This document shows, piece by piece, positions 1 through 42,548 of a DNA stretch of 42,548 bases. The stretch lies in IMG/VR virus record IMGVR_UViG_2671180275_000010; one strand, given 5' to 3'. A program made the position numbers and the translations under genes. This DNA comes from a virus (Duplodnaviria; Heunggongvirae; Uroviricota; Caudoviricetes). Within the stretch, counting starts at the first letter, position 1; every line of letters begins with the position of its first letter. The notes beneath the pieces were generated by a model. That model did no database searches. It was not told the DNA's origin and saw only the letters and a program-made list of their open reading frames with translations.

Positions 1-1287
1 TCAGAGTCTGGCTCTATGGGGCATGTATGGGACACTCTCTGTCAACTGCTTATTGAGTAGTTCTATTTGCCCGATATTGTTATCTTCCATCCATGCACCG
101 TAAACGTTGAATACCATTTGTGCATTTGCATGGCCCATTTGGTTTGCTATGAAGCTTGGATTCGCTCCTGCCGATAATGCCCAGCAGGCATAAGTATGCC
201 TGGACTGATAGGCTTTTCTGTGCCGCAGTCCTGCTCGCCTTAATGCAGATGCCCAGGAATCTCTGATGGAATCTGCTTTATAGTGGTGGCCGACGTGCTG
301 GCATTTTTTCACCAGTTGCGGATTAAAAACAAACGTGCATTCATGGCTTGTGCTGCGTCCGAACTCCCGCAGTTTGACATCAATTTGATATTGCTGGTCA
401 AACCTTGTCATTTCAGCCTGGCTTTTCAGGGCATCAACAGCTGGTTGAACAAGATGAATAACACGATCAGTTCCCGCCTCTGTTTTTGGTAGAGTGAACT
501 CCCCGAGTTTTGTATAATTACGACGGATAGTCATTGTTTTAGCTTTTAAATCAATATCCTCCCAGGCGAGAGCTATTAGCTCACCGTGACGAATGCCTGT
601 GTATACTGCTAAGGACCACAGGTTTTTCGTTTGTTGATGGTGACAGGCATCAATAAAGCGAATAAATTCGTCACGCGTGAGCGGATCTGGCTCTGTTCTG
701 GATCTCTTTAATGGTGTCAGCCCGTTAAATGGGTTTGACACGATATAGCCGTTATCAGCCGCAAATTGAAACATTCCTGCAATTGTCGTCATGTAGTAAT
801 TAACCGTAACTACTGACCTTCCTTTAATCGGCGTTGTTTTTCCGTTAGAGAGATTATGATACCCGGTTAACAAGTCTTTCCTGATAAACAGTAAATCTTC
901 CTTTGTTACCGACGAAGCAAGACGTTTTTCCCCTATGCGAGGAAGCATGTTTCTCACCACGGATTGATACCGACTGAATGCATTACTTCCTATCTCAATT
1001 TTCTTAAGGTCCAGCCATTTTTCCGAAAGTGCCTTAACGGTTATCTCTCTTTTTCCCAGACCAAAGTGTTTCAGGTTAGGGGAATTAGGGAACTGCGCGG
1101 CGTAGTCGAAACTCCCCATTCTGATTGCAAAACAAACGGAAGTGCGAAGTTCACCAGCGATCTTCCGGTTTTTGGCTGTGTCAGGAACACCGAGGTTTTC
1201 TCTGACACGTTTGCCATTATAGTGAAACCATATACGGAGTGATCCTCCATGGTTTTCAACGCCTGTCGGGTATGATGCGTTACTCAT
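1..1287 (-). CDS. int: Tyrosine-type site-specific integrase (lambda Int family); stop codon lies at window positions 1-3, so the att site is outside the window
   Basis: 428-aa ORF with a phage-integrase-like C-terminal catalytic region (conserved Arg/His/Tyr-containing segments); sits at the prophage end immediately upstream of an excisionase-like gene. Confidence 0.9.
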   Translation of the reverse strand: MSNASYPTGVENHGGSLRIWFHYNGKRVRENLGVPDTAKNRKIAGELRTSVCFAIRMGSFDYAAQFPNSPNLKHFGLGKREITVKALSEKWLDLKKIEIGSNAFSRYQSVVRNMLPRIGEKRLASSVTKEDLLFIRKDLLTGYHNLSNGKTTPIKGRSVVTVNYYMTTIAGMFQFAADNGYIVSNPFNGLTPLKRSRTEPDPLTRDEFIRFIDACHHQQTKNLWSLAVYTGIRHGELIALAWEDIDLKAKTMTIRRNYTKLGEFTLPKTEAGTDRVIHLVQPAVDALKSQAEMTRFDQQYQIDVKLREFGRSTSHECTFVFNPQLVKKCQHVGHHYKADSIRDSWASALRRAGLRHRKAYQSRHTYACWALSAGANPSFIANQMGHANAQMVFNVYGAWMEDNNIGQIELLNKQLTESVPYMPHRARL

Positions 1288-3003: not shown

Positions 3004-3515
3004 GCCGCGTTTCCTTCTTTCTTATTAACAATCACACCGTCATATATTTCATTAAGGTGCCCTCTCAACTCCATGCGCCTTAATGCAGATAACATGTAAT
3101 CGCATTCAACCTGCTTATTCCCGGTAAATGGCTTATCGTCAGGATTACCCCAACAGCAATTACCCCTGGGCCATCCATGTACTTTCCGTACTCTTCCGTT
3201 AACAACGTGAAGTAATCCCCAGCCGGGAGGTAAATCCTCAACTGAAATAATTTCCGGCTCACTAATAAAGAATCGCCAGTCGCCCATGCCAAGTGAGGGA
3301 TTTTTACGGAAACGCTTTTTTCTATCTGCCAACAAGTCAGCACGAGAACACTTCGCCTCTATCAGGCATGATGCTGAATTTCTGAATCCCATAGCATCTG
3401 GCTGTTCTCCGGTACTGGTTACAGCAACAAAGCGGTCATGAAAGCAAACCTTGAACCCGTTGCGCTTAAGGAACTTGTACGCAATCTGACAGAGTTCGTG
3501 GTGTGTTAACGCCAT
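3000..3515 (-). CDS. Putative PD-(D/E)xK nuclease-fold protein (MmcB-like)
   Basis: 171-aa ORF with AAGGAGA Shine-Dalgarno; contains ...QPDAMGFRNSASCLIEAKCS..., i.e. a PD...(D/E)xK-like spacing. Confidence 0.45.
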   Translation of the reverse strand: MALTHHELCQIAYKFLKRNGFKVCFHDRFVAVTSTGEQPDAMGFRNSASCLIEAKCSRADLLADRKKRFRKNPSLGMGDWRFFISEPEIISVEDLPPGWGLLHVVNGRVRKVHGWPRGNCCWGNPDDKPFTGNKQVECDYMLSALRRMELRGHLNEIYDGVIVNKKEGNAA

Positions 3516-4325: not shown

Positions 4326-4521
4326 GCTTCACCTCGATAGGCTTGATGGTGTCTAACAGCAGTCGGCGGCACGTATTTTCTGCAAAGTGGCGGCGTCCAG
4401 TTTCTTTGTGGTAAAACTCGTTTTTGCCGACGACCCACATCCGTTCTGTTTGGTGCAATTTTTTTACCTGCGGTCCATCTTTGGTGATCACGGTACCGGT
4501 ATGGGTTTTTACGATTGTCAT
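4318..4521 (-). CDS. Hypothetical small protein
   Basis: 67-aa ORF; ATGA overlap with the stop of the PAPS-reductase-like gene. Confidence 0.4.
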   Translation of the reverse strand: MTIVKTHTGTVITKDGPQVKKLHQTERMWVVGKNEFYHKETGRRHFAENTCRRLLLDTIKPIEVKHV

Positions 4522-5396
4522 GCCACTACCTCTTCGAATTTCAACTCCAATTGGTCACCCCAGATTTCACATGATTCGGAACACGAACCAGTATCAAACC
4601 GCTTGGCCAGCACCATCGCCTGATACAAACTTCTGTAGTCGCTGTCGGCATACATTCTGGCAATCCTGTCAAGCGTCAGGTGACCACGGTACATAACGTC
4701 TTTACCTGTTCTGCGATGACCATCCCGGACGTGTTTGCCTGTAACCAGTTCATTAAAAACCCGCATCAGACCAGGTTCGTCTTTACATGCGATCCCCAGC
4801 TTTTGCGTTGACTTTTTGATGCAGAAAACACAGTTCCCGAGGTGCTCCGGGATTTGCAAATCAAAAGGTTGTTTACGCCACCACCGGATAACATCCGACT
4901 TATCAAAATCTGACAGCTCGGCAAGATACCGGACGCCCGGTTTCGGTTTCAGCCTACGGTGTTCGTCCGCACGAATACCCAGCCATGTGATGTAATTCCC
5001 TCGCCCAAAATGGTCATCGCAATATTTCGTGAAAGGGGTGAGTTTTAGCCTGTCAGTACAGAATGCGCCGCCGATGTATGGCGTACCGTACTTTTTAACC
5101 ATGTCCATAAACGGTTTAAGCACCGGCATTCGCGTCTGAATATCCTTTGGTTCCCATTCCGTATAACCATTTGGCTGCCCAAGCTCTGGATTTATATCGA
5201 CCTGCAACACAGTTAGCGGTATGCCCCAGAACTTCACAACCTCCCGAATAAAGCGGTATGTCAGCGGATGTTCGCAACCGGTATCCATAAAGATGTAGCA
5301 GACGTTATTGCCAGCCTTTCTTTGTTCTTCCATCAGGTGAACAAGATATGCAGATGTTCTCCCGCCAGAAAAACTAACTACATGAGTTATGCACAT
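4518..5396 (-). CDS. PAPS reductase-like PP-loop ATP-pyrophosphatase family protein (adenine nucleotide alpha-hydrolase superfamily)
   Basis: 292-aa ORF; N-terminal PP-loop VVSFSGGRTSAY followed by ...CYIFMDTGCEHP..., typical of the CysH/PAPS-reductase family; function in phages unknown. Confidence 0.75.
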   Translation of the reverse strand: MCITHVVSFSGGRTSAYLVHLMEEQRKAGNNVCYIFMDTGCEHPLTYRFIREVVKFWGIPLTVLQVDINPELGQPNGYTEWEPKDIQTRMPVLKPFMDMVKKYGTPYIGGAFCTDRLKLTPFTKYCDDHFGRGNYITWLGIRADEHRRLKPKPGVRYLAELSDFDKSDVIRWWRKQPFDLQIPEHLGNCVFCIKKSTQKLGIACKDEPGLMRVFNELVTGKHVRDGHRRTGKDVMYRGHLTLDRIARMYADSDYRSLYQAMVLAKRFDTGSCSESCEIWGDQLELKFEEVVA

Positions 5397-5923
5397 TTGC
5401 GTAATTCCGATAACTCGTTGAAGCGTTCCATAAACATCCCGTAGGCATGGCCCGGTGCCAGTGGAATCACTTTGAACATCTCTGTTGCCGGGATACCTTC
5501 CAATACAGGCCAGAAAGAGCCATCATCAAGTCCGAGATCGCGGCGTTCGGTTGCCAGCATGATGAGATCGGCATATTTCACTGGCGTGCTCATAACAGGA
5601 GGTAACCCGTATTTCTCACGGATTACGGCGTCTATTTTTTCTTCCATCCGTTTATAGTCAGGAAGAAGTCGTTTCAGTGGTGCGGGGATGTCCTGGCAAT
5701 ACGCTTCTGTTGCATCATGCATTAACGCTTCAAAAGCAAATTCCTGCGGCACCAGCTGGCTGCAAAGCACCGCATGCTGGGCGACACTGTAGAAGTGTGA
5801 AAGATGTCCTGCAAAGCGACAGATATTTGAAAGGGAAACCGCGATATCGTTAATCACGATGTCGTCTTTATTTATCTTGTCATAATAAAAATGCTTCCCG
5901 GAAAAAGTTTTAATAAATGACAT
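5387..5923 (-). CDS. HD-domain 5'-deoxynucleotidase (YfbR/YfdR-like)
   Basis: Start placed at internal ATG (Met22 of track ORF 5387..5986) preceded by GGAGA; 178 aa; H...HD motifs (SVAQHAV, LMHDATEA) and KYADLIMLATE block align with E. coli YfbR; length matches CPS-53 prophage YfdR as I recall it. Confidence 0.75.
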   Translation of the reverse strand: MSFIKTFSGKHFYYDKINKDDIVINDIAVSLSNICRFAGHLSHFYSVAQHAVLCSQLVPQEFAFEALMHDATEAYCQDIPAPLKRLLPDYKRMEEKIDAVIREKYGLPPVMSTPVKYADLIMLATERRDLGLDDGSFWPVLEGIPATEMFKVIPLAPGHAYGMFMERFNELSELRKCA

Positions 5924-6051
5924 TTCGTTCTCCACTTTATATGCGCTGCACCGCGCTGAATTCGGGTAAAAGGAATCCCGCACCATCCGGCGATTATTGA
6001 GTTAATTACGTTTCCATAAATGCCCCCGCAGGAGCATTTGCAGTAATGAAA

Positions 6052-6876
6052 TCAGGCGGTGAAAGTACCAATAAAGGTTTCTACTTTGCTGTCTTTGAAT
6101 TTCTCAACAAGCAGATCACGAAATTCGTTAGCCATTTCTTCCTGCACTGCTTCCAGCTGAATAATGCGCAGAACCAGTACAGGACGATCGCCAGTGATAA
6201 TGCTGAGGCGTAATTTAAATGGACGTTCTTTCAGACCTTCAAACGGAACGCATTTAAATTCAAATGCCACTGGCATAATATCTTTGGTCTTCGCTTCGAC
6301 AGACTCCATCAGGGAGCGTTTGCCGCTGAAGTCATTATCTTCAAAATCAGCGGTCTGGTTTGCTTCAATCGTGATTTTACGGACCGCCGCAGCCGCTTTT
6401 GTTGCCTGAATAGCGTCACCATTAGCATCAAAGCCCACAAGGTAGTCGGACCAGTCTTCAATCCATTCTGCCAGTGACTTCTGGGAGTTACGCTCGCCGT
6501 TAACAGACAACAGGGCAGAGAACGGTGCTGTCTTTTTCAGTTTGAGAGTGGCGGTGTTATCTGCGTGACCTGGTTCATCAATAGTACCCAGGTTAAGCAC
6601 ACTGACTGCTCGCATATTATCGGCATCGATAAATCAGCGGGTGCCTTCATCTGCAAGATCTTTAGAATAACGGGTAAAGTCATCGATGCTGGCAGTGGAA
6701 AGCGCACCACGGAAACGGAAGCGATTTAAATTAAATTTTTCCAGATCATGAATGCGGAAATTCTCAGGCAATGCCACAGCATCGGCACCAATCTTACTGA
6801 TAATTTCATTAACACCCTGAGCAGAAATAAGGGAATGAATTTGATTAATTGCGGTTGCGTCTAAGTTCTGAGACAT
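6052..6876 (-). pseudogene. yfdQ-like (DUF2303-type) gene interrupted by a single in-frame stop codon (track ORFs 6634..6876 and 6052..6615 share one frame)
   Basis: 80-aa and 187-aa ORFs are in the same frame, separated by one stop (read as TGA at 6634-6636) plus 6 sense codons; combined 274 codons equals the length I recall for E. coli CPS-53 YfdQ. Confidence 0.45.
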
Positions 6877-6941
6877 AATAAGTCCTCACTATATAAAGAT
6901 ATTCAGTGATGAGATAAATAATCGGTTAATTAAGAACGATA

Positions 6942-7304
6942 TTAATGACCTGCTGCGCGGAGTTTTCCGTCAGGTTCACCGGCAAGAGTCAGTAATTGTC
7001 CCTGGTCTTCCTGCAGAATAGTCAGGCGACCACCGCGATTGACATACATCGGCGTTTCGGTGGTGTCTTCTTCGGAAATTTTCCCGCGGTTAGTCGGGCG
7101 AACATATGAGAGTTTGTGTTTGATTTTCACACGGTTCTCATCAAACGGTTCGATTTCCAGGTTGAGCGAGACCTTACCTTTGGTTTTCGTGTTCATCACA
7201 CCGGAAGCGACTTCACTGAGAACAGCTCCGATTTTGGTTTCAAATACGCCGCCGTCCAGCTCCCCGATAAATGCCTGCACATCAGTACTACGTTCGCTAG
7301 CCAT
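6942..7304 (-). CDS. Hypothetical protein, first gene of leftward operon (YfdP-like by size and synteny)
   Basis: Start set at Met63 of track ORF (ATG 7302-7304) preceded by GAGGAG SD; 120 aa. Confidence 0.5.
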   Translation of the reverse strand: MASERSTDVQAFIGELDGGVFETKIGAVLSEVASGVMNTKTKGKVSLNLEIEPFDENRVKIKHKLSYVRPTNRGKISEEDTTETPMYVNRGGRLTILQEDQGQLLTLAGEPDGKLRAAGH

Positions 7305-7436
7305 TTTGCTGCTCCTCATCATATCGACCCTGCAAGGTCGGTTGGTTTCCCCACAAAACAGAGAAGAACACCTGCGGTGGCAGCCGCCCGGATGGATTGG
7401 GTTATGAGCCCGTCGTCCGGTGATGCTCTTCTCTGT

Positions 7437-7487
7437 TTTGTAAAAAGAGCGGTACCAGCCGGAAGCAAGTGTACAAACTGGTACCGC
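7437..7487 (-). terminator. Intrinsic terminator-like hairpin on the leftward transcript (10-bp stem GCGGTACCAG/CTGGTACCGC followed by U-tract), upstream of first left-operon gene
   Basis: Perfect 10-bp inverted repeat with about 19-nt loop followed on the minus strand by TCTTTTTA; a second 14-bp long-range inverted repeat (about 7354-7367 / 7427-7440) flanks it. Confidence 0.45.
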
Positions 7488-7932
7488 CAAAGCAGTGGCT
7501 GTTGTGGTGACCGGTGCTGATCTCCGGCTTGCGGTTATTTCAGACTCTCACGGGCGTTTAATTGCCCCGCCGAACAGCTCTTTTCCGCAATAGCTGCAAT
7601 GTCTTTCGCGCATCAGCCTGCGCCTTCACCACAACACTGAGAGCACTTAGCCAGTTACGGCACCACACTTTGTCGCGGTTCCATAAATGCCCTCATCGTT
7701 GCACCCTGGTCTCTTCCCAGGCGTCAAACCGAATCGCCACGCTGGTTAGGCGTCTTATCAGCATCATCATTGACTTGCACATTCCGGCTACCTGGTTTGT
7801 TTGCCCGAGCAAGGAGTGGATTGTCTCCTTTAACGTCCCCAGACCGCTAACGACGCATGTGCCATACGCCGTGTTACAACCAAATTTTGTTAGTACCTTG
7901 TTTGTTGGTCTGGAAAGAAAGATAAAATGAAG

Positions 7933-7971
7933 TTGCGCATTATGCAAGTATTTTTGTTGCGAGATATGCAA
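7933..7971. promoter_or_regulatory. OL-like operators: two TTGC-N7-GCAA sites (TTGCGCATTATGCAA, TTGCGAGATATGCAA) with a putative leftward promoter
   Basis: Same TTGC-N7-GCAA half-site pattern as the sites between cI and cro; located just beyond the cI terminator. Confidence 0.4.
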
Positions 7972-7980
7972 TTTGATGAG

Positions 7981-8005
7981 TAATGAAAAGCCACCTTCGG
8001 GTGGC
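7981..8005 (-). terminator. Intrinsic terminator downstream of cI
   Basis: GCCACC-TTCG-GGTGGC hairpin followed on the minus strand by TTTTCATT, about 20 nt after the cI stop. Confidence 0.6.
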
Positions 8006-8026
8006 TAATTGATGAGGAGGTAAGGG

Positions 8027-8719
8027 TTAATTGTGTCGCTTAAGGGTTTGTGACTGGCTGATTAAGACCTTTCCAAAGACCATAAACCGGTGTTCATTTT
8101 CGCTGGTAATTCCCCATTCACGGTAAATCTGGTTATCAGAAATTACCAGTAGTTTGTCAGGTATCATTTGCAGTCGTTTGACATAAATTTTATCATCAAA
8201 ACCAAACACATAGATACCATCCCCATCAAACTGATTGATACTGATATCAACGAAGATGAGATCTCCTGGCTCAATGGTTGGACACATACTGTCCCCACGA
8301 ACGTTGATAACTTTAATGTGATTTGCTGGTCGTCCACCAAACATCGATACAGCATTATCAGTTCTGTATTCAATGGCATGAATCACATCAATGACATCAC
8401 CGCCCTGGATAAGGCCATTTCCCGCACTGGCACTGACATCCAGCATTTCAATACGGAATACATCCTTCACCTGCGCAACATCCTCACTAATACTGTTTTT
8501 ACATACAGTATTACTTTTGAGGTCTGAGGTAAAGAGATCAGCAATATCAACACCTAAGCTCCTGGCAATATTACTCAGGGCTTGTTCAGTGAATTGTTTC
8601 TGCTTACCTGTTTCGAGGCGCGAGATATTCGCCGCATCCACTCCTATTGCTTCAGCGAGATCGGCGATTTTCATGTTCTTCGCCTGGCGAAGTTGTCTGA
8701 CTCGATTTCCTATGTTCAT
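8027..8719 (-). CDS. cI: CI-like prophage repressor (HTH_XRE N-terminal domain + S24 LexA-like autopeptidase domain)
   Basis: 230 aa; HTH (IADLAEAIGVDAANISRLETG); Ala-Gly cleavage site (SASAGNG); S24 catalytic Ser in GDSMCPTI and Lys in VKRL; divergent from cro. Confidence 0.9.
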   Translation of the reverse strand: MNIGNRVRQLRQAKNMKIADLAEAIGVDAANISRLETGKQKQFTEQALSNIARSLGVDIADLFTSDLKSNTVCKNSISEDVAQVKDVFRIEMLDVSASAGNGLIQGGDVIDVIHAIEYRTDNAVSMFGGRPANHIKVINVRGDSMCPTIEPGDLIFVDISINQFDGDGIYVFGFDDKIYVKRLQMIPDKLLVISDNQIYREWGITSENEHRFMVFGKVLISQSQTLKRHN

Positions 8720-8816
8720 GCGTTTATTACATTTCTTTATTGCGCGTTAAGCAAATCAACTTGCGCAAAATATTTGCGTGAAATAATATGCTCATCACGC
8801 AATATGTGGAGGTTAT
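8720..8816. promoter_or_regulatory. Divergent immunity promoter/operator region (OR with PR and PRM analogues)
   Basis: Three operator-like sites with TTGC/GCAA half-sites (TTGCGCGTTAAGCAA at about 8740-8754, CGCAAAATATTTGCG, ATGCTCATCACGCAA); putative PR -35 TTGCGC / -10 TAATAT; GGAGG SD before cro. Confidence 0.6.
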
Positions 8817-9077
8817 ATGCAATCACCATTACGGAATGTGCGTAAGGCGCACGGATTTACTTTGCAGCATGTTGCTGCGGGCGTTCAGGTCAATCCAGCG
8901 ACGCTGAGTCGTATTGAAAGACTGGAACAAATTCCATCTATCGATCTTGCAGAACGTCTGGCCAATTTTTTTAAGGGTGAAATCAGCGAAATGCAGATTC
9001 TTTATCCGGCACGTTTTCAATCTAGCCAAAACCAGAATGGGTTTAAACCACAGGAACAGGAGGTAAGCCGTGGGTAA
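8817..9077 (+). CDS. cro: Cro-like HTH regulator
   Basis: 86-aa ORF divergent from cI with HTH (FTLQHVAAGVQVNPATLSRIE). Confidence 0.7.
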   Translation: MQSPLRNVRKAHGFTLQHVAAGVQVNPATLSRIERLEQIPSIDLAERLANFFKGEISEMQILYPARFQSSQNQNGFKPQEQEVSRG

Positions 9078-9627
9078 GCATCACTGGAAAGTGGAAAAAC
9101 AACCTGAGTGGTACGTGAAAGCTGTCAGAAAAACTATCGCGGCATTGCCTGGGGGTTACGCTGAAGCTGCTGACTGGCTGGATGTAACAGAGAACGCTTT
9201 ATTCAACCGCCTTCGTGCAGATGGCGATCAGATTTTCCCGCTGGGATGGGCAATGGTTTTACAGCGTGCGGCTGGCACTCACTACATTGCGGATGCTGTC
9301 GCACAGTCTGCTGGTGGGGTGTTCGTATCGCTTCCTGAAATTGAGGCAGTAGAGAACGCCGATATAAACCAGCGCCTGCTGGAAGTCATTGAACAGATCG
9401 GCGGTTATTCCAGACAGATTCGTTCAGCAATCGAAGACGGTGTAGTGGAACCGCATGAGAAGACAGCAATTAACGACGAACTGTATCTTTCAATTTCGAA
9501 GCTCCAGGAGCATGCAGCACTGGTCTACAAAATCTTCTGCGCTCCAGAAAATAGTAACGCCCGCGAGTGTGCAGCTCCGGGCGTCGTGGCGTCGATTGCT
9601 TCTGGTTGTGGAGAAACTAACGCATGA
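9070..9627 (+). CDS. CII-like / YdaT-like regulatory protein
   Basis: 185-aa ORF with GTG start overlapping the cro stop; N-terminal HTH-like segment; position equivalent to cII/ydaT. Confidence 0.4.
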   Translation: MGKHHWKVEKQPEWYVKAVRKTIAALPGGYAEAADWLDVTENALFNRLRADGDQIFPLGWAMVLQRAAGTHYIADAVAQSAGGVFVSLPEIEAVENADINQRLLEVIEQIGGYSRQIRSAIEDGVVEPHEKTAINDELYLSISKLQEHAALVYKIFCAPENSNARECAAPGVVASIASGCGETNA

Positions 9628-9772
9628 ATAGTTTAACGGCAAATAACCGTTTGTCGCAACAGCTGGTGGTCAGCGTCGCTGAACACCTGTTGTTACGGCA
9701 TGAATGCAGATTACCAAATCACCTGGCTGTAAGTAACCACAGAGAACTTTACCTGACTGTGGGGGGCGAGTT

Positions 9773-9952
9773 GTGCAGGAACTTAACCGCTGGTTTCGTG
9801 ACGGAAGAGGGCTTTATGTCCATGTTATTCGTTGGGAGCCAGAAACACAGCGCGTTATCTATCTTCGCAAAGACTACCCGCATGAGTGCTTTAGTCCTTT
9901 GTGGAAATTCAGGCGTGATTTTGTTGAGTGTGAAGGACCACCAGCATATTGA
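9773..9952 (+). CDS. Possible small protein (59 aa) in an alternative frame of the long track ORF 9624..10775
   Basis: Frame gives protein-like sequence (...RWFRDGRGLYVHVIRWEPETQRVIYLRKDYPHECFSPLWKF...) with GTG start after a G-rich stretch; not in ORF track (under 60 aa). Confidence 0.25.
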   Translation: MQELNRWFRDGRGLYVHVIRWEPETQRVIYLRKDYPHECFSPLWKFRRDFVECEGPPAY

Positions 9953-10037
9953 TTCTGCAATTCCGGGACGTTACACTGTTCCGGCACCTTATAAAGCGGG
10001 TGCCGGGCGTGGAAACCCGAAATTCAATATAGAGCAC

Positions 10038-10060
10038 AACCGCGCTCATGCGGTTTTTTC
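10038..10060 (+). terminator. Intrinsic terminator-like hairpin (AACCGC-GCTCAT-GCGGTT + TTTTTT)
   Basis: 6-bp GC-rich stem followed by a 6-T run; lies inside the implausible N-terminal extension of the Rha ORF. Confidence 0.4.
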
Positions 10061-10229
10061 GTGTCATGAGCATCGTTACGCCCAAATTATGGTGGGGCGT
10101 GCAGGGCCAACTTCGGTTGGGCCGGGTTCTATGTTGACCGGTATTTCCACCCCTGTACGTCTCACCACCTATATGGTCGTGGAAAGCCTTGGTGGTGAGT
10201 TCATTGAATTCAACATAGGGGCTGTCACC

Positions 10230-10775
10230 ATGACTACTCTCCCAACCCAATCTCACCCTGAAATCACGATTATCAATGGTCGCGTTGTCACCACATCTCT
10301 TGCAGTAGCTAATTACTTTACTAAACGGCATGAGCGGGTTTTAGATAGAATTAGAAACCTCGAATGTTCCGCTGAATTTACTGAACACAATTTTGTGTTA
10401 AGTGAATACACCGACGCATCAGGCCGCAAACTCCCTTGTTACCAAATCACCCGCGACGGTTTTGCGTTTCTTGCTATGGGTTTCACGGGTAAACGTGCTG
10501 CCCGGTTCAAAGAGGCATACATCAATGCCTTTAACCAGATGGAAAAACTGCTTTCAAAGCCATCCACGCTGAGCGATGCCGCAGATAACGCCAGCGTGCT
10601 TTACTCCCACCTGTCGGTAATCCACAAGGTCTGGCTGCAGCAGCTTTATCCCATGTTGGCAAAAGCCGAATCCCCGCTGGCTGTAAGTCTGTATGACCGC
10701 ATCAACGACGCGGCGCTACTGGCCAGTCTCATAAATTTGTCGCTGAACCCTTCAGAGGTAAGGGGGCGCAAATGA
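10230..10775 (+). CDS. Rha-family phage regulatory protein (antirepressor-like)
   Basis: C-terminal 181 aa of track ORF 9624..10775 starting at internal ATG; ITIINGRVVTTSLAVANYFTKRHERVLDRIRNL ... YQITRDGFAFLAMGFTGKRAARFKEAYINAFNQME matches the Rha domain signature. Confidence 0.7.
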   Translation: MTTLPTQSHPEITIINGRVVTTSLAVANYFTKRHERVLDRIRNLECSAEFTEHNFVLSEYTDASGRKLPCYQITRDGFAFLAMGFTGKRAARFKEAYINAFNQMEKLLSKPSTLSDAADNASVLYSHLSVIHKVWLQQLYPMLAKAESPLAVSLYDRINDAALLASLINLSLNPSEVRGRK

Positions 10776-10996
10776 TCCGGAATATTTTCAAACGGTTTAC
10801 CAATCAGACTTTCCGTTGTCCTCGTCCTGGTCAGTGGTACACCACGCCTGCAGGGCATGTTCTACGTGTTAGCCTGGTTGACCGTGAATGTCAGAAGGTG
10901 ATTTGTGAACCGCTGGGCCGTAATTACCGCGTCAGTATGCCGCTTATAGCCTTTTGCTCCGGAAAAATGTTTAAGCGTCTGGGAGGTGTGGCGTGA
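10772..10996 (+). CDS. Hypothetical small protein
   Basis: 74-aa ORF, ATGA-coupled to Rha. Confidence 0.4.
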   Translation: MIRNIFKRFTNQTFRCPRPGQWYTTPAGHVLRVSLVDRECQKVICEPLGRNYRVSMPLIAFCSGKMFKRLGGVA

Positions 10997-11292
10997 ACTG
11001 TTTTCAGTTTGTGTGCGGATGTGCTTTCGATAACCCGATTCAGCGCCTGATTATGTTGCGTGTTTTGATGTCGGGTTCTTCAGACGGTGAAGGCGAGAGA
11101 GTTATTGATCATCAGGTGCTTGCTGATTTCTGCTGTTGTTCTAAGCAAGCGATATTCAGGGAAACCCTGGCACTGGAAAGAGCTGGTTATCTTCATATCC
11201 GAAAAATTGCAACGCTTACTATTGATGCAAAAGCCAGACTACAACCTGCGCGTGGCTACACAATTCTCATGCTGCGGAAGGAGGTTGTATGA
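10993..11292 (+). CDS. Putative winged-helix DNA-binding protein
   Basis: 99-aa ORF, coupled to neighbours; HTH-like segment CSKQAIFRETLALERAGYL. Confidence 0.4.
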   Translation: MNCFQFVCGCAFDNPIQRLIMLRVLMSGSSDGEGERVIDHQVLADFCCCSKQAIFRETLALERAGYLHIRKIATLTIDAKARLQPARGYTILMLRKEVV

Positions 11293-12272
11293 GCCGTTAC
11301 GCCCCCACACCGGAAGTTATGGCTATTGGTCAAATTAATATTTCCGGCAATGTTACACCTGCGACCTGGTGGAAATATATTCGACTACCCAGTGGGCGTC
11401 CGGATGCGACGGCTATCGCTCTGCTTTCAGAGATCGTTTACTGGTACCGCCCGACAGAGGTCAGGGATGAGCACACCGGAGCGTTGCTGGGATATCGCAA
11501 GCGTTTTCAGGGCGACAAACTGCAAAGAAGCTACCAGGCGTTTGCTGAGCAGTTTGGTTTCGGGAAAAGGGAAACCGCAGATGCGCTGAAGCGTCTGCGC
11601 GATGCAGGGTTTATTACTCTGGATTTACGCACGGTGGAAATGCTCGATGGGGTGAAATGCAGCAATATTTTGTTTGTCGGGATCAACCCACAGGCAATTG
11701 CGGCCATCACCACACCTTCTTCTGTTTCGCCAGAAAGTAACAGCAATAATGCAATCAGCGATACAGCTATTACGTTAAAACGGAACACCCCCCGACGTCA
11801 TAACGGAACAGGGGATACGCCGAATGTTGATACAAATACAGAGATTACTACAGAGATTACAACGGAGACTAAAAACACTATTGATGCATCCGCTGACGCG
11901 TCTGCGCCAGCGCGTTCTGCCCGACAGGAATATTCACCGGAATTTGAACAGGCCTGGCAGGAATATCCCAAACGTGCTGGTGGCAATTCAAAATCAGCAG
12001 CCTTCAAAGCCTGGAAAGCCCGTTTGAACGAGGGGGTAAACCCCGAAACCATGCTGGAAGGTGTGAAACGCTACGCGGGCTGGGTATCTGCGATGGGCAA
12101 TAGCGGCACACAATTTGTGAAACAGGCTGTCACGTTCTTTGGTCCGGATCGTCATTTCGAAGAATCCTGGGAAGTTCCTGCGGTATCTGCAGCCAGACGC
12201 GAGGACCCGTACTTCAAAGCCAGTTACGACAACGTGGACTACAGCCAGATCCCGACAGGATTCAGGGGGTGA
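11289..12272 (+). CDS. Putative phage replication initiation protein (O-like role; carries in-gene iterons)
   Basis: 327-aa ORF in the replication position; two domains joined by a Thr/Glu-rich linker (TEITTEITTET) encoded by tandem repeats, as in lambda O / ori. Confidence 0.55.
   Translation: MSRYAPTPEVMAIGQINISGNVTPATWWKYIRLPSGRPDATAIALLSEIVYWYRPTEVRDEHTGALLGYRKRFQGDKLQRSYQAFAEQFGFGKRETADALKRLRDAGFITLDLRTVEMLDGVKCSNILFVGINPQAIAAITTPSSVSPESNSNNAISDTAITLKRNTPRRHNGTGDTPNVDTNTEITTEITTETKNTIDASADASAPARSARQEYSPEFEQAWQEYPKRAGGNSKSAAFKAWKARLNEGVNPETMLEGVKRYAGWVSAMGNSGTQFVKQAVTFFGPDRHFEESWEVPAVSAARREDPYFKASYDNVDYSQIPTGFRG
11829..11873. repeat. Iteron-like tandem 12-bp direct repeats (ACAGAGATTAC(T/A) x2 plus degenerate copies); candidate replication origin inside the replication gene
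   Basis: Perfect tandem duplication ACAGAGATTACT ACAGAGATTACA followed by ACGGAGACT; coordinates derived from codon positions 184-194 of the ORF. Confidence 0.4.
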
Positions 12273-17132: not shown

Positions 17133-17268
17133 TGACTGAAATCGCATCAGTACAGTAAACGTGCTGGTGGTGAATACCTGTCTTTCAGCTTGCTGGCTTT
17201 TTAGACAAGAGTTATTGGTATGTCACGTTAACCGGAAAAGGGAAAAAGACATGCTAAAACAGTAGGAT

Positions 17269-17448
17269 ATGACAGAAACCGCCAGAGTGGTGTTTAATGA
17301 ATTAAGCGTCACCTACCCGGCGACAGTCGGGGAGATTGCGCAGAATACTTACCTTTCACGCGAACGCTGCCAGTTAATACTGACCCAGCTGGTTATGGCG
17401 GGTCTGGCAGACTATCAGTTCGGTTGTTACAGACGCCTTCCGCAGTGA
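17269..17448 (+). CDS. Small hypothetical protein (59 aa, winged-helix-like)
   Basis: ATG preceded by AGGA; ends inside a terminator hairpin; not in ORF track (under 60 aa); MTETARVVFNELSVTYPATVGEIAQNTYLSRERCQLILTQLVMAGLADYQFGCYRRLPQ. Confidence 0.35.
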   Translation: MTETARVVFNELSVTYPATVGEIAQNTYLSRERCQLILTQLVMAGLADYQFGCYRRLPQ

Positions 17449-40469: not shown

Positions 40470-40473
40470 TGCA

Positions 40474-40503
40474 GGCACCCTCCGGGGTGCCTGTTGTTTT
40501 TAT
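40474..40503 (+). terminator. Intrinsic terminator (GGCACCC-TCCG-GGGTGCC + TGTTGTTTTTAT) just upstream of J
   Basis: Perfect 7-bp GC-rich stem, tetraloop and T-rich tail. Confidence 0.55.
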
Positions 40504-40544
40504 ACATCAACAGTGTCCGGCAGCGGACGGTGAAGGGGGATTCT

Positions 40545-42548
40545 GTGGGCAAAGGCGGCGGCAAGGCGCACACACCTCGTGAGGCGAAGGATAATCTCAA
40601 ATCCACGCAGATGATGAGCGTGATTGATGCCATTGGTGAGGGACCGGTGGAAGGTCCGGTGAAGGGACTGCAGAGTATTCTGGTGAACAAAACCCCGCTG
40701 ACGGACACGGACGGTAATCCCGTGATACACGGTGTGACCGCCGTCTGGCGTGCCGGGGAGCAGGAGCAGACACCACCGGAAGGCTTTGAGTCCTCCGGAG
40801 CTGAAACTGTACTGGGTGTGGAAGTGACGAAGGCAAAACCGGTGACGCGCACCATTACGTCAGCGAACATTGACCGCCTGCGGGTGACCTTCGGGGTGCA
40901 GTCACTGGTGGAGACCACCTCAAAGGGTGACCGTAACCCGACGTCTGTCCGCCTGCTGATTCAGCTTGAGCGTGGTGGTAAATGGATGACGGAAAAGGAT
41001 GTCACCATTAACGGCAAGACCACCTCGCAGTTCCTGGCGTCGGTGATTCTGGATAATCTGCCGCCCCGGCCCTTTAACATCCGGATGGTCCGGGAGACGG
41101 CGGACAGCACCACGGACCAGCTGCAGAATAAGACGCTGTGGTCGTCATACACCGAAATCATCGATGTGAAACAGTGCTACCCGAACACGGCCATTGTGGG
41201 GCTGCAGGTGGATGCGGAGCAGTTCGGCGGCCAGCAGATGACGGTGAACTACCATATCCGCGGTCGCATCATCCAGGTGCCGTCAAACTATGACCCGGAA
41301 AAACGCACGTACAGCGGTATCTGGGACGGCAGTCTGAAACCGGCATACAGCAACAACCCGGCCTGGTGTCTGTGGGACATGCTGACTCACCCGCGCTACG
41401 GGATGGGAAAACGCCTGGGGGCGGCGGATGTGGACAAGTGGGCGCTGTATGCCATCGGGCAGTACTGCGACCAGACGGTCCCGGATGGTTTCGGGGGCAC
41501 AGAGCCGCGGATGACCTTCAATGCGTACCTGGCACAACAGCGTAAGGCATGGGACGTGCTCAGTGATTTCTGCTCGGCGATGCGCTGTATGCCGGTATGG
41601 AACGGCCAGACGCTGACGTTCGTTCAGGACCGCCCGTCGGATGTGGTGTGGCCGTACACCAACAGCGATGTGGTGGTGGATGATAACGGCGTGGGGTTCC
41701 GCTACAGCTTCAGTGCCCTGAAGGACCGGCACACGGCGGTGGAGGTGAATTACACCGACCCGCAGAACGGCTGGCAGACCTCCACGGAACTGGTGGAAGA
41801 CCCGGAAGCCATACTGCGCTACGGACGCAACCTGCTGAAGATGGACGCGTTCGGCTGTACCAGCCGCGGTCAGGCCCACCGTGCCGGGCTGTGGGTGATA
41901 AAGACCGAACTGCTGGAAACGCAGACGGTGGATTTCACACTCGGGTCTCAGGGGCTGCGGCACACACCCGGTGACATTATTGAAATCTGTGATAATGACT
42001 ATGCCGGGACCCTGACCGGCGGACGTGTCCTGTCCATCGATGCTGCCACCCGCACCCTGACGCTGGACCGTGAAGTGACACTTCCGGGGACAGGTGCATC
42101 GACGGTGAACCTGATTAACGGCAGCGGTAAGCCGGTGAGTGTGGACATCACCGCACACCCCGCGCCGGACCGGATACAGGTCAGCCCCCTGCCGGATGGC
42201 GTGGAGACATACGGGGTATGGGGACTGAAAATGCCCGGTCTTCGCCGTCGCCTGTTCCGCTGTGTGGCCATCCGGGAAAACACGGACGGCACCTTTGCCA
42301 TCACGGCAGTGCAGCACGTACCGGAAAAAGAAGCCATTGTGGATAACGGAGCCCGCTTTGAGCCGCAGTCAGGCACCCTGAACAGCGTTATCCCACCGGC
42401 AGTACAGCACCTGACGGTGGAGGTGAGCGCAGCTGACAGCCAGTATCTGGCGCTGGCGAAATGGGACACGCCGAGGGTGGTGAAGGGCGTGCGCTTCAGT
42501 CTGCGCCTGACCAGTGGAAGCGGTGAGAACAGCCGCCTGGTGACCAGC
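40545..42548 (+). CDS. J: Tail tip / host-specificity protein J (5' partial; continues beyond window end)
   Basis: GTG start after AAGGGGG; N-terminus (M)GKGGGKAHTPREAKDNLKSTQMMSVIDAIGEGPVEGPV collinear with lambda gpJ; open frame runs to the last base of the window. Confidence 0.95.
   Translation, partial: MGKGGGKAHTPREAKDNLKSTQMMSVIDAIGEGPVEGPVKGLQSILVNKTPLTDTDGNPVIHGVTAVWRAGEQEQTPPEGFESSGAETVLGVEVTKAKPVTRTITSANIDRLRVTFGVQSLVETTSKGDRNPTSVRLLIQLERGGKWMTEKDVTINGKTTSQFLASVILDNLPPRPFNIRMVRETADSTTDQLQNKTLWSSYTEIIDVKQCYPNTAIVGLQVDAEQFGGQQMTVNYHIRGRIIQVPSNYDPEKRTYSGIWDGSLKPAYSNNPAWCLWDMLTHPRYGMGKRLGAADVDKWALYAIGQYCDQTVPDGFGGTEPRMTFNAYLAQQRKAWDVLSDFCSAMRCMPVWNGQTLTFVQDRPSDVVWPYTNSDVVVDDNGVGFRYSFSALKDRHTAVEVNYTDPQNGWQTSTELVEDPEAILRYGRNLLKMDAFGCTSRGQAHRAGLWVIKTELLETQTVDFTLGSQGLRHTPGDIIEICDNDYAGTLTGGRVLSIDAATRTLTLDREVTLPGTGASTVNLINGSGKPVSVDITAHPAPDRIQVSPLPDGVETYGVWGLKMPGLRRRLFRCVAIRENTDGTFAITAVQHVPEKEAIVDNGARFEPQSGTLNSVIPPAVQHLTVEVSAADSQYLALAKWDTPRVVKGVRFSLRLTSGSGENSRLVTS

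What the first reader, a model, noticed from the sequence alone, without database searches (positions are those of the whole stretch)
6052..6876. yfdQ-like gene split by a single in-frame stop codon
Track ORFs 6634..6876 (80 aa) and 6052..6615 (187 aa) are in the same frame, separated only by one stop codon and six sense codons. The combined length (274 codons) equals what I recall for intact YfdQ. This is either a recent nonsense mutation (cargo decay), a sequencing error, or programmed stop-codon read-through.
Basis: seen in the sequence. Interest (0 to 1): 0.4.

Follow-up and report, generated by a model that had tools for sequence, protein, structure and literature searches.

The report
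Nonsense-mutated yfdQ prophage gene
A prophage gene of unknown function (yfdQ) is cut in two by a single-base change that turns a cysteine codon into a stop codon; this is an ordinary, one-off gene knockout or base-call error, not a programmed recoding signal.

Summary
On the minus strand an 80-codon ORF (6637-6876), a TGA stop (6634-6636), six sense codons and a 187-codon ORF (6052-6615) lie in one frame and total 274 codons. That is exactly the length of intact E. coli yfdQ (DUF2303/PF10065).

The cause is one substitution, C to A at gene nucleotide 243 (window base 6634), which changes TGC (Cys81) to TGA. Every homolog I examined is a single uninterrupted ORF:
- 87 E. coli, Shigella and IMG/VR copies carry C at that base.
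- 79 loci from many other bacterial species carry TGC, TGT or AGC there.

A 33-mer holding the TGA has no hit in 5,426 complete E. coli genomes or 50,697 phage records. The TGC version hits 2,400 genomes.

Nothing supports recoding. There is no SECIS-like structure, Rfam match or suppressor tRNA, and no Shine-Dalgarno sequence precedes the downstream ATG. In a predicted structure the break falls inside a beta-strand.

The rest of the lambdoid prophage is intact: 51 of 53 reference genes are full length and undisrupted. The nearest relative differs at only two bases in 6.5 kb.

Verdict: a very recent private nonsense mutation, or a base-call error that cannot be excluded without reads. Low interest.

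The parts
6637..6876 (-). N-terminal fragment of yfdQ, codons 1-80. This 80-aa peptide is the only product expected from normal translation.
   Evidence: ORF. Pfam DUF2303 positions 2-73 of 269, E 1e-19. Identical to CP55_Sichuan yfdQ except for a synonymous change at 6838.
6883..6887 (-). Native Shine-Dalgarno sequence (GAGGA) of yfdQ, upstream of the ATG at 6874-6876.
   Evidence: Duplex with the anti-SD sequence is -6.4 kcal/mol. Sequence.
6634..6636 (-). Premature TGA stop at codon 81. The mutated base is window position 6634 (A on the gene strand, T on the + strand); all relatives have C (G on the + strand), giving TGC, Cys81.
   Evidence: Alignment; difference list; 87 of 87 E. coli-type copies have C; 79 other loci have TGC, TGT or AGC.
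6616..6633 (-). Six former sense codons (FIDADN, residues 82-87 of intact YfdQ), now downstream of the stop.
   Evidence: F82 and I83 are invariant in the family alignment.
6052..6615 (-). C-terminal part of yfdQ, codons 88-274 plus the natural stop at 6052-6054. It is an open frame starting at the internal Met88 and has no ribosome-binding site of its own.
   Evidence: ORF. Pfam DUF2303 positions 84-269 of 269, E 4e-61. Anti-SD duplex upstream of Met88 is +0.3 kcal/mol.
6942..7304 (-). yfdP, the intact upstream neighbour in the same early-left operon.
   Evidence: 100% identity over 120 aa to the STEC2018-607 YfdP; annotation.
5387..5923 (-). yfdR (HD-domain 5'-deoxynucleotidase), the intact downstream neighbour.
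   Evidence: 100% identity over 178 aa; PHROG 318; annotation.

Best explanation
yfdQ, a DUF2303 gene in the early-left operon of a lambdoid prophage integrated next to yecE, carries a single C-to-A transversion at gene nucleotide 243 (window base 6634). This converts the conserved Cys81 codon TGC into the opal stop TGA. Ribosomes starting at the normal ATG (6874-6876) terminate after 80 residues. The remaining 187 codons have no ribosome-binding site, so they would be translated only by rare near-cognate read-through or by inefficient re-initiation at Met88, 18 nt downstream. The allele is therefore a loss-of-function (pseudogene) allele of an accessory phage gene. It arose very recently and is private to this genome. 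The sequence change, its uniqueness and the lack of recoding signals are shown here. The loss of function, the absence of a useful C-terminal product and the reality of the base in the organism (as opposed to the assembly) are inferred.
For: The single difference is TGC to TGA, against both K-12 and the closest relative CP55_Sichuan. Only two differences from CP55_Sichuan occur across 5532-12044 (6.5 kb): this one and a synonymous change at 6838. All 82 loci fetched at that stage (80 IMG/VR plus two E. coli relatives) have TGC and a 274-aa ORF. All 87 E. coli-type copies have C at nucleotide 243. In 79 loci from many other species at 41-99% identity the aligned codon is TGC (60), TGT (16) or AGC (3), never a stop, and all are single ORFs. 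A 33-mer with TGA has 0 hits in 5,426 complete E. coli genomes and 0 in phage records. A 39-mer has 0 hits in the one-genome-per-species collection and in IMG/VR. A 23-mer has 0 hits in the metagenome and IMG/VR collections. The control 33-mer with TGC hits 2,400 genomes at 3,056 places. The two fragments map to consecutive parts of Pfam DUF2303. Cys81, F82 and I83 are invariant in 38 enterobacterial homologs. In the AlphaFold model residue 81 lies in strand 80-84, next to strand 89-94, so the cut is inside a predicted strand and not in a linker. There is no SD before Met88 (+0.3 versus -6.4 kcal/mol at the native start). The other genes of the prophage are intact: of 53 reference CDSs, 51 are full length with no stop. 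This points to a single recent hit rather than general decay.
Against: No reads are available, so a consensus base-call error at 6634 gives exactly the same picture: a singleton allele, no secondary decay and intact neighbours. C-to-A (G-to-T on the other strand) is also the typical change from oxidative DNA damage during library preparation; this is my background knowledge, not tested here. Loss of function is inferred, since nothing here measures the protein.
Confidence: 0.77

Rival explanations
1. Sequencing or assembly error: the organism actually has TGC at this codon and an intact yfdQ, and the A at gene nucleotide 243 is a wrong consensus call.
For: The allele is a singleton: 0 hits in every collection searched. 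It differs by one base from an otherwise near-identical relative. The gene shows no other sign of decay. The window ends inside gene J, which could be a contig end in a draft assembly, although the window boundary may simply be arbitrary. Many E. coli genomes carry several yfdQ copies (up to 6 places per genome), which can confuse short-read consensus calling.
Against: Against the two closest relatives the window shows no indels over the 10.4 kb aligned to CP55_Sichuan and one gap in the 10 kb aligned to STEC2018-607. All other compared genes are intact, so the assembly is not generally error-prone. The window's yfdQ also has a second private change, a synonymous one at 6838. That is what real lineage divergence looks like. 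Substitution errors in a finished consensus are rare (background knowledge).
Confidence: 0.19
2. Recoding: the UGA is decoded as selenocysteine, or read through as Trp or Cys, to give a functional full-length YfdQ.
For: The UGA replaces a Cys codon that is conserved in 76 of 79 diverse homologs and invariant in enterobacterial ones. A UGA aligned with Cys is the pattern that flags selenoproteins. UGA is the leakiest stop codon in E. coli (background knowledge).
Against: No other copy has UGA: 0 of 5,426 genomes against 2,400 with TGC, and 0 of 166 fetched loci. No Rfam family, SECIS included, matches at E<0.7 in 6000-7000. The 60 nt after the UGA fold no better than shuffled sequence (z -0.84), and the same small AU-rich hairpin is present in the TGC allele of K-12, so nothing co-evolved with the stop. 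The window has no tRNA gene. The base after the stop is U, which I recall as the most efficient termination context for UGA in E. coli (Poole, Brown and Tate 1995; from memory). A singleton cannot be called 'programmed'.
Confidence: 0.02
3. Functional split gene: the 80-aa and 187-aa products are both made, the second by termination-reinitiation at Met88, and they assemble into a working two-piece YfdQ.
For: The downstream ATG is only 18 nt from the stop and in the same frame. Met88 is nearly invariant in enterobacterial homologs.
Against: There is no SD before Met88, and an out-of-frame ATG at gene nucleotide 251 comes first. Residues 81-87, including the invariant C81, F82 and I83, would be missing from both pieces. 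The cut lies within a predicted beta-strand. No homolog in any species is organised as two genes. Other broken yfdQ copies in the databases are deletions and fusions, not this split.
Confidence: 0.02

Closest known systems
E. coli K-12 yfdQ (CPS-53/KpLE1 cryptic prophage; YfdQ family, Pfam DUF2303 PF10065, PHROG 210)
   Same: The gene, its length (274 codons) and its gene order yfdP-yfdQ-yfdR are the same. The DNA query 6000-6950 is 97.8% identical to K-12. In K-12, yfdQ is needed together with yfdR and yfdS or yfdT for multicopy suppression of hda-185, that is, for inhibition of DnaA-dependent initiation (PMC4776307). Otherwise it has no known function (PMC12315714).
   Different: The window copy has TGA in place of Cys81 TGC. 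It sits in an apparently complete lambdoid prophage next to yecE rather than in the CPS-53 remnant. A PAPS-reductase-like gene, not yfdS/yfdT, follows yfdR.
yfdQ of E. coli CP55_Sichuan (WP_001537101.1) and STEC2018-607, in prophages at the same yecE site
   Same: CP55_Sichuan is the closest allele, with 2 differences in 825 nt. The flanking 6.5 kb is identical except for those two bases. Integrase and attachment neighbourhood are the same.
   Different: Both relatives have an intact 274-codon gene.
Other decayed yfdQ copies (YfdP-YfdQ fusions, 5'-truncated copies as in O157:H7, internal deletions, YfdQ-YfdR fusions)
   Same: They show that yfdQ is often inactivated in resident prophages.
   Different: Those are deletions and rearrangements, several of them found in many genomes. 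The window allele is a point nonsense mutation seen nowhere else.
PDB 9o7m, 'YfdQ Protein' (36 chains in the entry)
   Same: A homolog with a solved structure, E 2e-44 over residues 16-273.
   Different: It is a distant family member and has Gly at the position of Cys81. I found no paper describing it, and it is not in the fold libraries I could search.
Bacterial selenoprotein genes such as fdhF (UGA plus SECIS)
   Same: An in-frame UGA aligned with Cys in homologs.
   Different: There is no SECIS hairpin and the UGA is not conserved in any other copy.

Membership tests
YfdQ / DUF2303 (PF10065) | Sequence matches the Pfam profile above the gathering score. | tested here: met
   The fragments score 71.3 and 206.9 bits against a cut-off of 26.6 and cover profile positions 2-73 and 84-269. 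PHROG 210 matches the intact K-12 protein at E 5e-120.
YfdQ / DUF2303 (PF10065) | A single uninterrupted ORF of about 270-276 codons. | tested here: not met
   The window copy is interrupted by TGA at codon 81. All 166 homologous loci examined are uninterrupted. The window copy is therefore a disrupted member, a pseudogene allele.
YfdQ / DUF2303 (PF10065) | Position in the early-left operon of a lambdoid (pro)phage, between yfdP and yfdR. | tested here: met
   Gene order is cI-like repressor, yfdP, yfdQ, yfdR, then on to xis and int, all on the minus strand. The literature describes the same cluster.
Pseudogene by nonsense mutation | One base change relative to intact orthologs creates the stop, with no compensating feature. 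| tested here: met
   TGC to TGA is the only non-synonymous difference from the closest allele.
Pseudogene by nonsense mutation | The variant base is real in the organism, supported by reads or resequencing. | not testable with these tools
   No reads or quality values are available for the window.
Bacterial selenoprotein gene | In-frame UGA aligned with Cys in homologs. | tested here: met
   Cys in 76 of 79 diverse homologs and invariant in 38 enterobacterial homologs.
Bacterial selenoprotein gene | A SECIS stem-loop immediately 3' of the UGA. | tested here: not met
   No Rfam match. The downstream fold has z -0.84, and the same fold occurs in the TGC allele.
Bacterial selenoprotein gene | The UGA is conserved in at least some orthologs. 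| tested here: not met
   0 of 5,426 E. coli genomes, against 2,400 with TGC. 0 of 166 fetched loci.
Programmed stop-codon read-through | A conserved leaky stop with a stimulatory context or a suppressor tRNA. | tested here: not met
   The stop is not conserved. No tRNA gene is in the window. No significant downstream structure is present. The +4 base is U, which I recall as a strong termination context (from memory).

The most novel reading that the evidence does not exclude
The UGA at the conserved Cys81 position is decoded at a useful rate, as Sec, Cys or Trp, so this prophage makes a low level of full-length and possibly altered YfdQ. That would be an accidental 'leaky' allele that tunes the dose of an early-left-operon protein. 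My evidence does not strictly exclude a few per cent of near-cognate read-through, which is normal for UGA in E. coli. It does exclude any evolved, conserved recoding signal.
Probability: 0.02. Interest if true: 0.35.

Novelty: already known. Interest (0 to 1): 0.06.

Why it matters
It matters little beyond annotation. The two ORFs should be annotated as one yfdQ pseudogene with an internal stop, not as two hypothetical genes. The allele is private, so if it is real it could serve as a lineage marker. It would also be a natural yfdQ-null in an otherwise intact lambdoid prophage. That could be used to ask whether YfdQ, whose function is still unknown, is dispensable for induction and growth of such phages. 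Nothing here bears on recoding or other open questions.

Tried and rejected
1. Selenocysteine or programmed read-through. Rfam at a permissive E-value on 6000-7000 gave only noise, all E >= 0.75. Folding the 60 and 101 nt around the UGA gave z about -0.8, the same as the TGC allele. ARAGORN found no tRNA in the window. Rejected.

2. Two-gene organisation. No homolog is split, and there is no SD before Met88. Rejected.

3. Search for other carriers of the TGA allele. Exact 39-mer, 23-mer and 33-mer searches in genome contigs, viral contigs, metagenome contigs, complete E. coli genomes and phage records all gave 0 hits. Exact look-up of the two fragment proteins among 15 billion proteins found neither.

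4. General prophage decay. tblastn of 53 reference CDSs against the window showed only yfdQ genuinely interrupted. The 'cargo decay' framing is rejected.

6. Defence-system and NCBIfam profiles for YfdQ and YfdP gave no hits.

7. A paper for PDB 9o7m was not found.

Full report
**Observation**

The minus strand of 6052-6876 contains two ORFs in one frame: 6634..6876 (80 aa) and 6052..6615 (187 aa). Continuous translation gives 80 aa, a stop, FIDADN, then 187 aa and a stop, which is 274 codons plus the terminal stop. The junction reads GGC ACC CGC TGA TTT ATC GAT GCC GAT AAT ATG.

**Identity of the gene**

Both pieces match Pfam DUF2303 (PF10065). The first covers profile positions 2-73 (E 1e-19) and the second covers 84-269 (E 4e-61), so they are consecutive parts of one domain.

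The DNA (6000-6950) matches 2,722 of 5,426 complete E. coli genomes at 95% identity or more in nearly all of them. There it is annotated as a single 'YfdQ family protein' between yfdP and yfdR. In K-12 MG1655 and in the two closest relatives the CDS is 825 nt, or 274 codons.

**The lesion**

Alignment with K-12 and with the closest allele, CP55_Sichuan, shows that the stop arises from one change: C to A at gene nucleotide 243. This turns TGC (Cys81) into TGA. On the + strand the base is window position 6634.

Across 5532-12044 (6.5 kb) the window differs from CP55_Sichuan at only two positions: 6634 and a synonymous ATC-to-ATT change at 6838. Relative to the closest alleles both changes are private to the window.

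**Is the stop found anywhere else?**

No.
- The 80 IMG/VR loci and two E. coli relatives fetched first all have TGC and a 274-aa ORF. With later loci, 87 of 87 E. coli-type copies have C at nucleotide 243.
- In 79 loci from many other bacterial species (41-99% protein identity; mostly Enterobacterales, plus Marinobacter, Hahella, Photobacterium and others) the aligned codon is TGC (60), TGT (16) or AGC (3). Each is one uninterrupted ORF.
- I designed a 33-mer so that every 28-base seed word must include the mutated base. It gives no hit in the complete E. coli genomes or the phage records. The same 33-mer with TGC hits 2,400 genomes at 3,056 places.
- The 39-mer is absent from the one-genome-per-species collection and from IMG/VR. 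The 23-mer is absent from the JGI metagenome contigs and from IMG/VR.
- Neither fragment protein exists as an exact sequence among about 15 billion predicted proteins.

**Tests for recoding**

Cys81 is invariant among 38 enterobacterial homologs, in the motif R-C-F-I-D/N. It is Cys in 76 of 79 diverse homologs. A UGA at that position therefore superficially resembles a selenoprotein signature. The other requirements fail:
- No Rfam family, SECIS families included, matches 6000-7000 better than E 0.75.
- The 60 nt following the UGA fold no better than shuffled sequence (z -0.84). The only local element is a 6-bp AU-rich hairpin 4 nt downstream, and it is equally present in the TGC allele of K-12.
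- The window encodes no tRNA, so there is no phage-borne suppressor.
- The base after the stop is U. From memory (Poole, Brown and Tate 1995), this is the most efficient termination context for UGA in E. coli.
- A feature present in one copy out of thousands is not 'programmed'.

**Tests for a functional split**

- The 20 nt upstream of Met88 have no Shine-Dalgarno complementarity: +0.3 kcal/mol, against -6.4 for the native yfdQ start and -8.6 for yfdP.
- An out-of-frame ATG at gene nucleotide 251 comes before Met88.
- Residues 81-87, with the invariant C81, F82 and I83, would be absent from both products.
- An AlphaFold2 model built on 38 homologs (mean pLDDT 76) places residue 81 in strand 80-84, next to strand 89-94. 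The cut is inside a predicted strand and not at a domain boundary. This is a prediction of moderate confidence.

**Context**

The window is a lambdoid prophage. The integrase lies at 1-1287 on the minus strand. In the closest relatives it abuts yecE. Then come xis, early-left genes including a PAPS-reductase-like gene, yfdR, yfdQ and yfdP. After these come a cI-like repressor, cro-like gene, ymfL, Rha, replication genes, Q, lysis genes, terminase, head and tail genes. Gene J runs off the right end of the window.

I compared 53 annotated proteins from the closest prophages with the window using tblastn.
- 51 align without a stop, all over their full length except the replication protein, which aligns over 252 of 271 residues.
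- The exceptions are yfdQ and a 65-aa hypothetical at 17251-17445.
- In the hypothetical, CAG becomes TAG at codon 5, upstream of a better-placed start (Met7, preceded by AGGA). It is probably not a real disruption.

The prophage as a whole is therefore not decaying. yfdQ has taken a single, very recent hit.

Elsewhere yfdQ is often broken, but by deletions and fusions: YfdP-YfdQ and YfdQ-YfdR fusions, 5' truncations and internal deletions.

**What YfdQ does**

The function is unknown. [quoted passage not shown]

A 2025 survey of lambdoid phages states that yfdQ and yfdP have no known function. It describes them as common in early-left operons but not universal there (PMC12315714). That fits an accessory, dispensable gene.

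A homolog has a solved structure, PDB 9o7m, 'YfdQ Protein', with 36 chains (E 2e-44) and Gly at the Cys81 position. I found no paper for it. Fold searches with the model gave nothing informative. PADLOC and NCBIfam have no model for it.

**Mechanism and verdict**

Translation from the native start ends at codon 81 and gives an 80-residue fragment. The C-terminal two-thirds is essentially untranslated, so the allele is null.

Downstream genes (yfdR and beyond) probably remain expressed. They have their own ribosome-binding sites, and early-left transcripts of lambdoid phages are normally antiterminated. This last point is an inference that I did not test.

My probabilities are:
- about 0.77 that this is a real, recent, private nonsense mutation
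- about 0.19 that it is a consensus base error, indistinguishable without reads
- about 0.02 for recoding
- about 0.02 for a functional two-piece gene

This is an ordinary finding. The correct annotation is 'yfdQ, pseudogene, internal stop'.

Noticed in passing
window 17251-17445 (+), base 17263: A 65-aa hypothetical gene downstream of Q has CAG changed to TAG at codon 5 relative to STEC2018-607. A second ATG (Met7, 17269), preceded by AGGA, is probably the true start, so the change is likely in the leader and not a real nonsense mutation.
   Followed up: partly
window 1-1287 and 40470-42548: The window starts exactly at the stop codon of the integrase gene, which in relatives overlaps yecE by 17 nt. 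It ends inside the tail gene J, whose frame is still open for 693 aa at the window end. The element is therefore a prophage cut at its right side by a contig or window boundary.
   Followed up: partly
window 5393-5531: Twelve of the 14 differences from CP55_Sichuan in 5389-12044 are clustered in these 140 nt, at the 3' end of yfdR. To the left the two prophages diverge: the window has a PAPS-reductase-like gene that CP55_Sichuan lacks. This looks like a mosaic recombination junction.
   Followed up: partly
window 4518-5396 (-): A PAPS-reductase-domain gene lies in the early-left operon. It matches PHROG 424 and, more weakly, the PADLOC models SspD (E 1.8e-15), DndC and BrxP. This suggests a relation to phosphorothioation and DNA-modification enzymes. 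Its role in the phage is unknown.
   Followed up: no
window 7305-8026 (-): About 720 nt between the cI-like repressor and yfdP carry no annotated gene in the three relatives whose annotation I examined. A terminator-like hairpin (8006-7989) directly follows the repressor gene. The left early promoter and operator and any N/nut-like antitermination elements should lie here, but the simple promoter scan found none.
   Followed up: no
window 9624-10775 (+): The Rha-family regulator is only 78% identical to that of STEC2018-607, with gaps, although the flanking genes are 99-100% identical. This is another mosaic segment.
   Followed up: no
PDB 9o7m (homolog of window 6052-6876): A solved structure named 'YfdQ Protein' with 36 chains in one entry exists for a distant family member, which hints at a large oligomeric assembly. 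I found no associated paper, and the entry is absent from the fold libraries available here.
   Followed up: partly
protein database hits P0011, P0074, P0025, P0027, P0066, P0072, P0073: Many other E. coli genomes carry yfdQ remnants produced by deletions: YfdP-YfdQ and YfdQ-YfdR fusions, an internal deletion, and several 5' truncations whose junctions cluster around residues 94-100. The shared junction region might mark a recombination hotspot.
   Followed up: no
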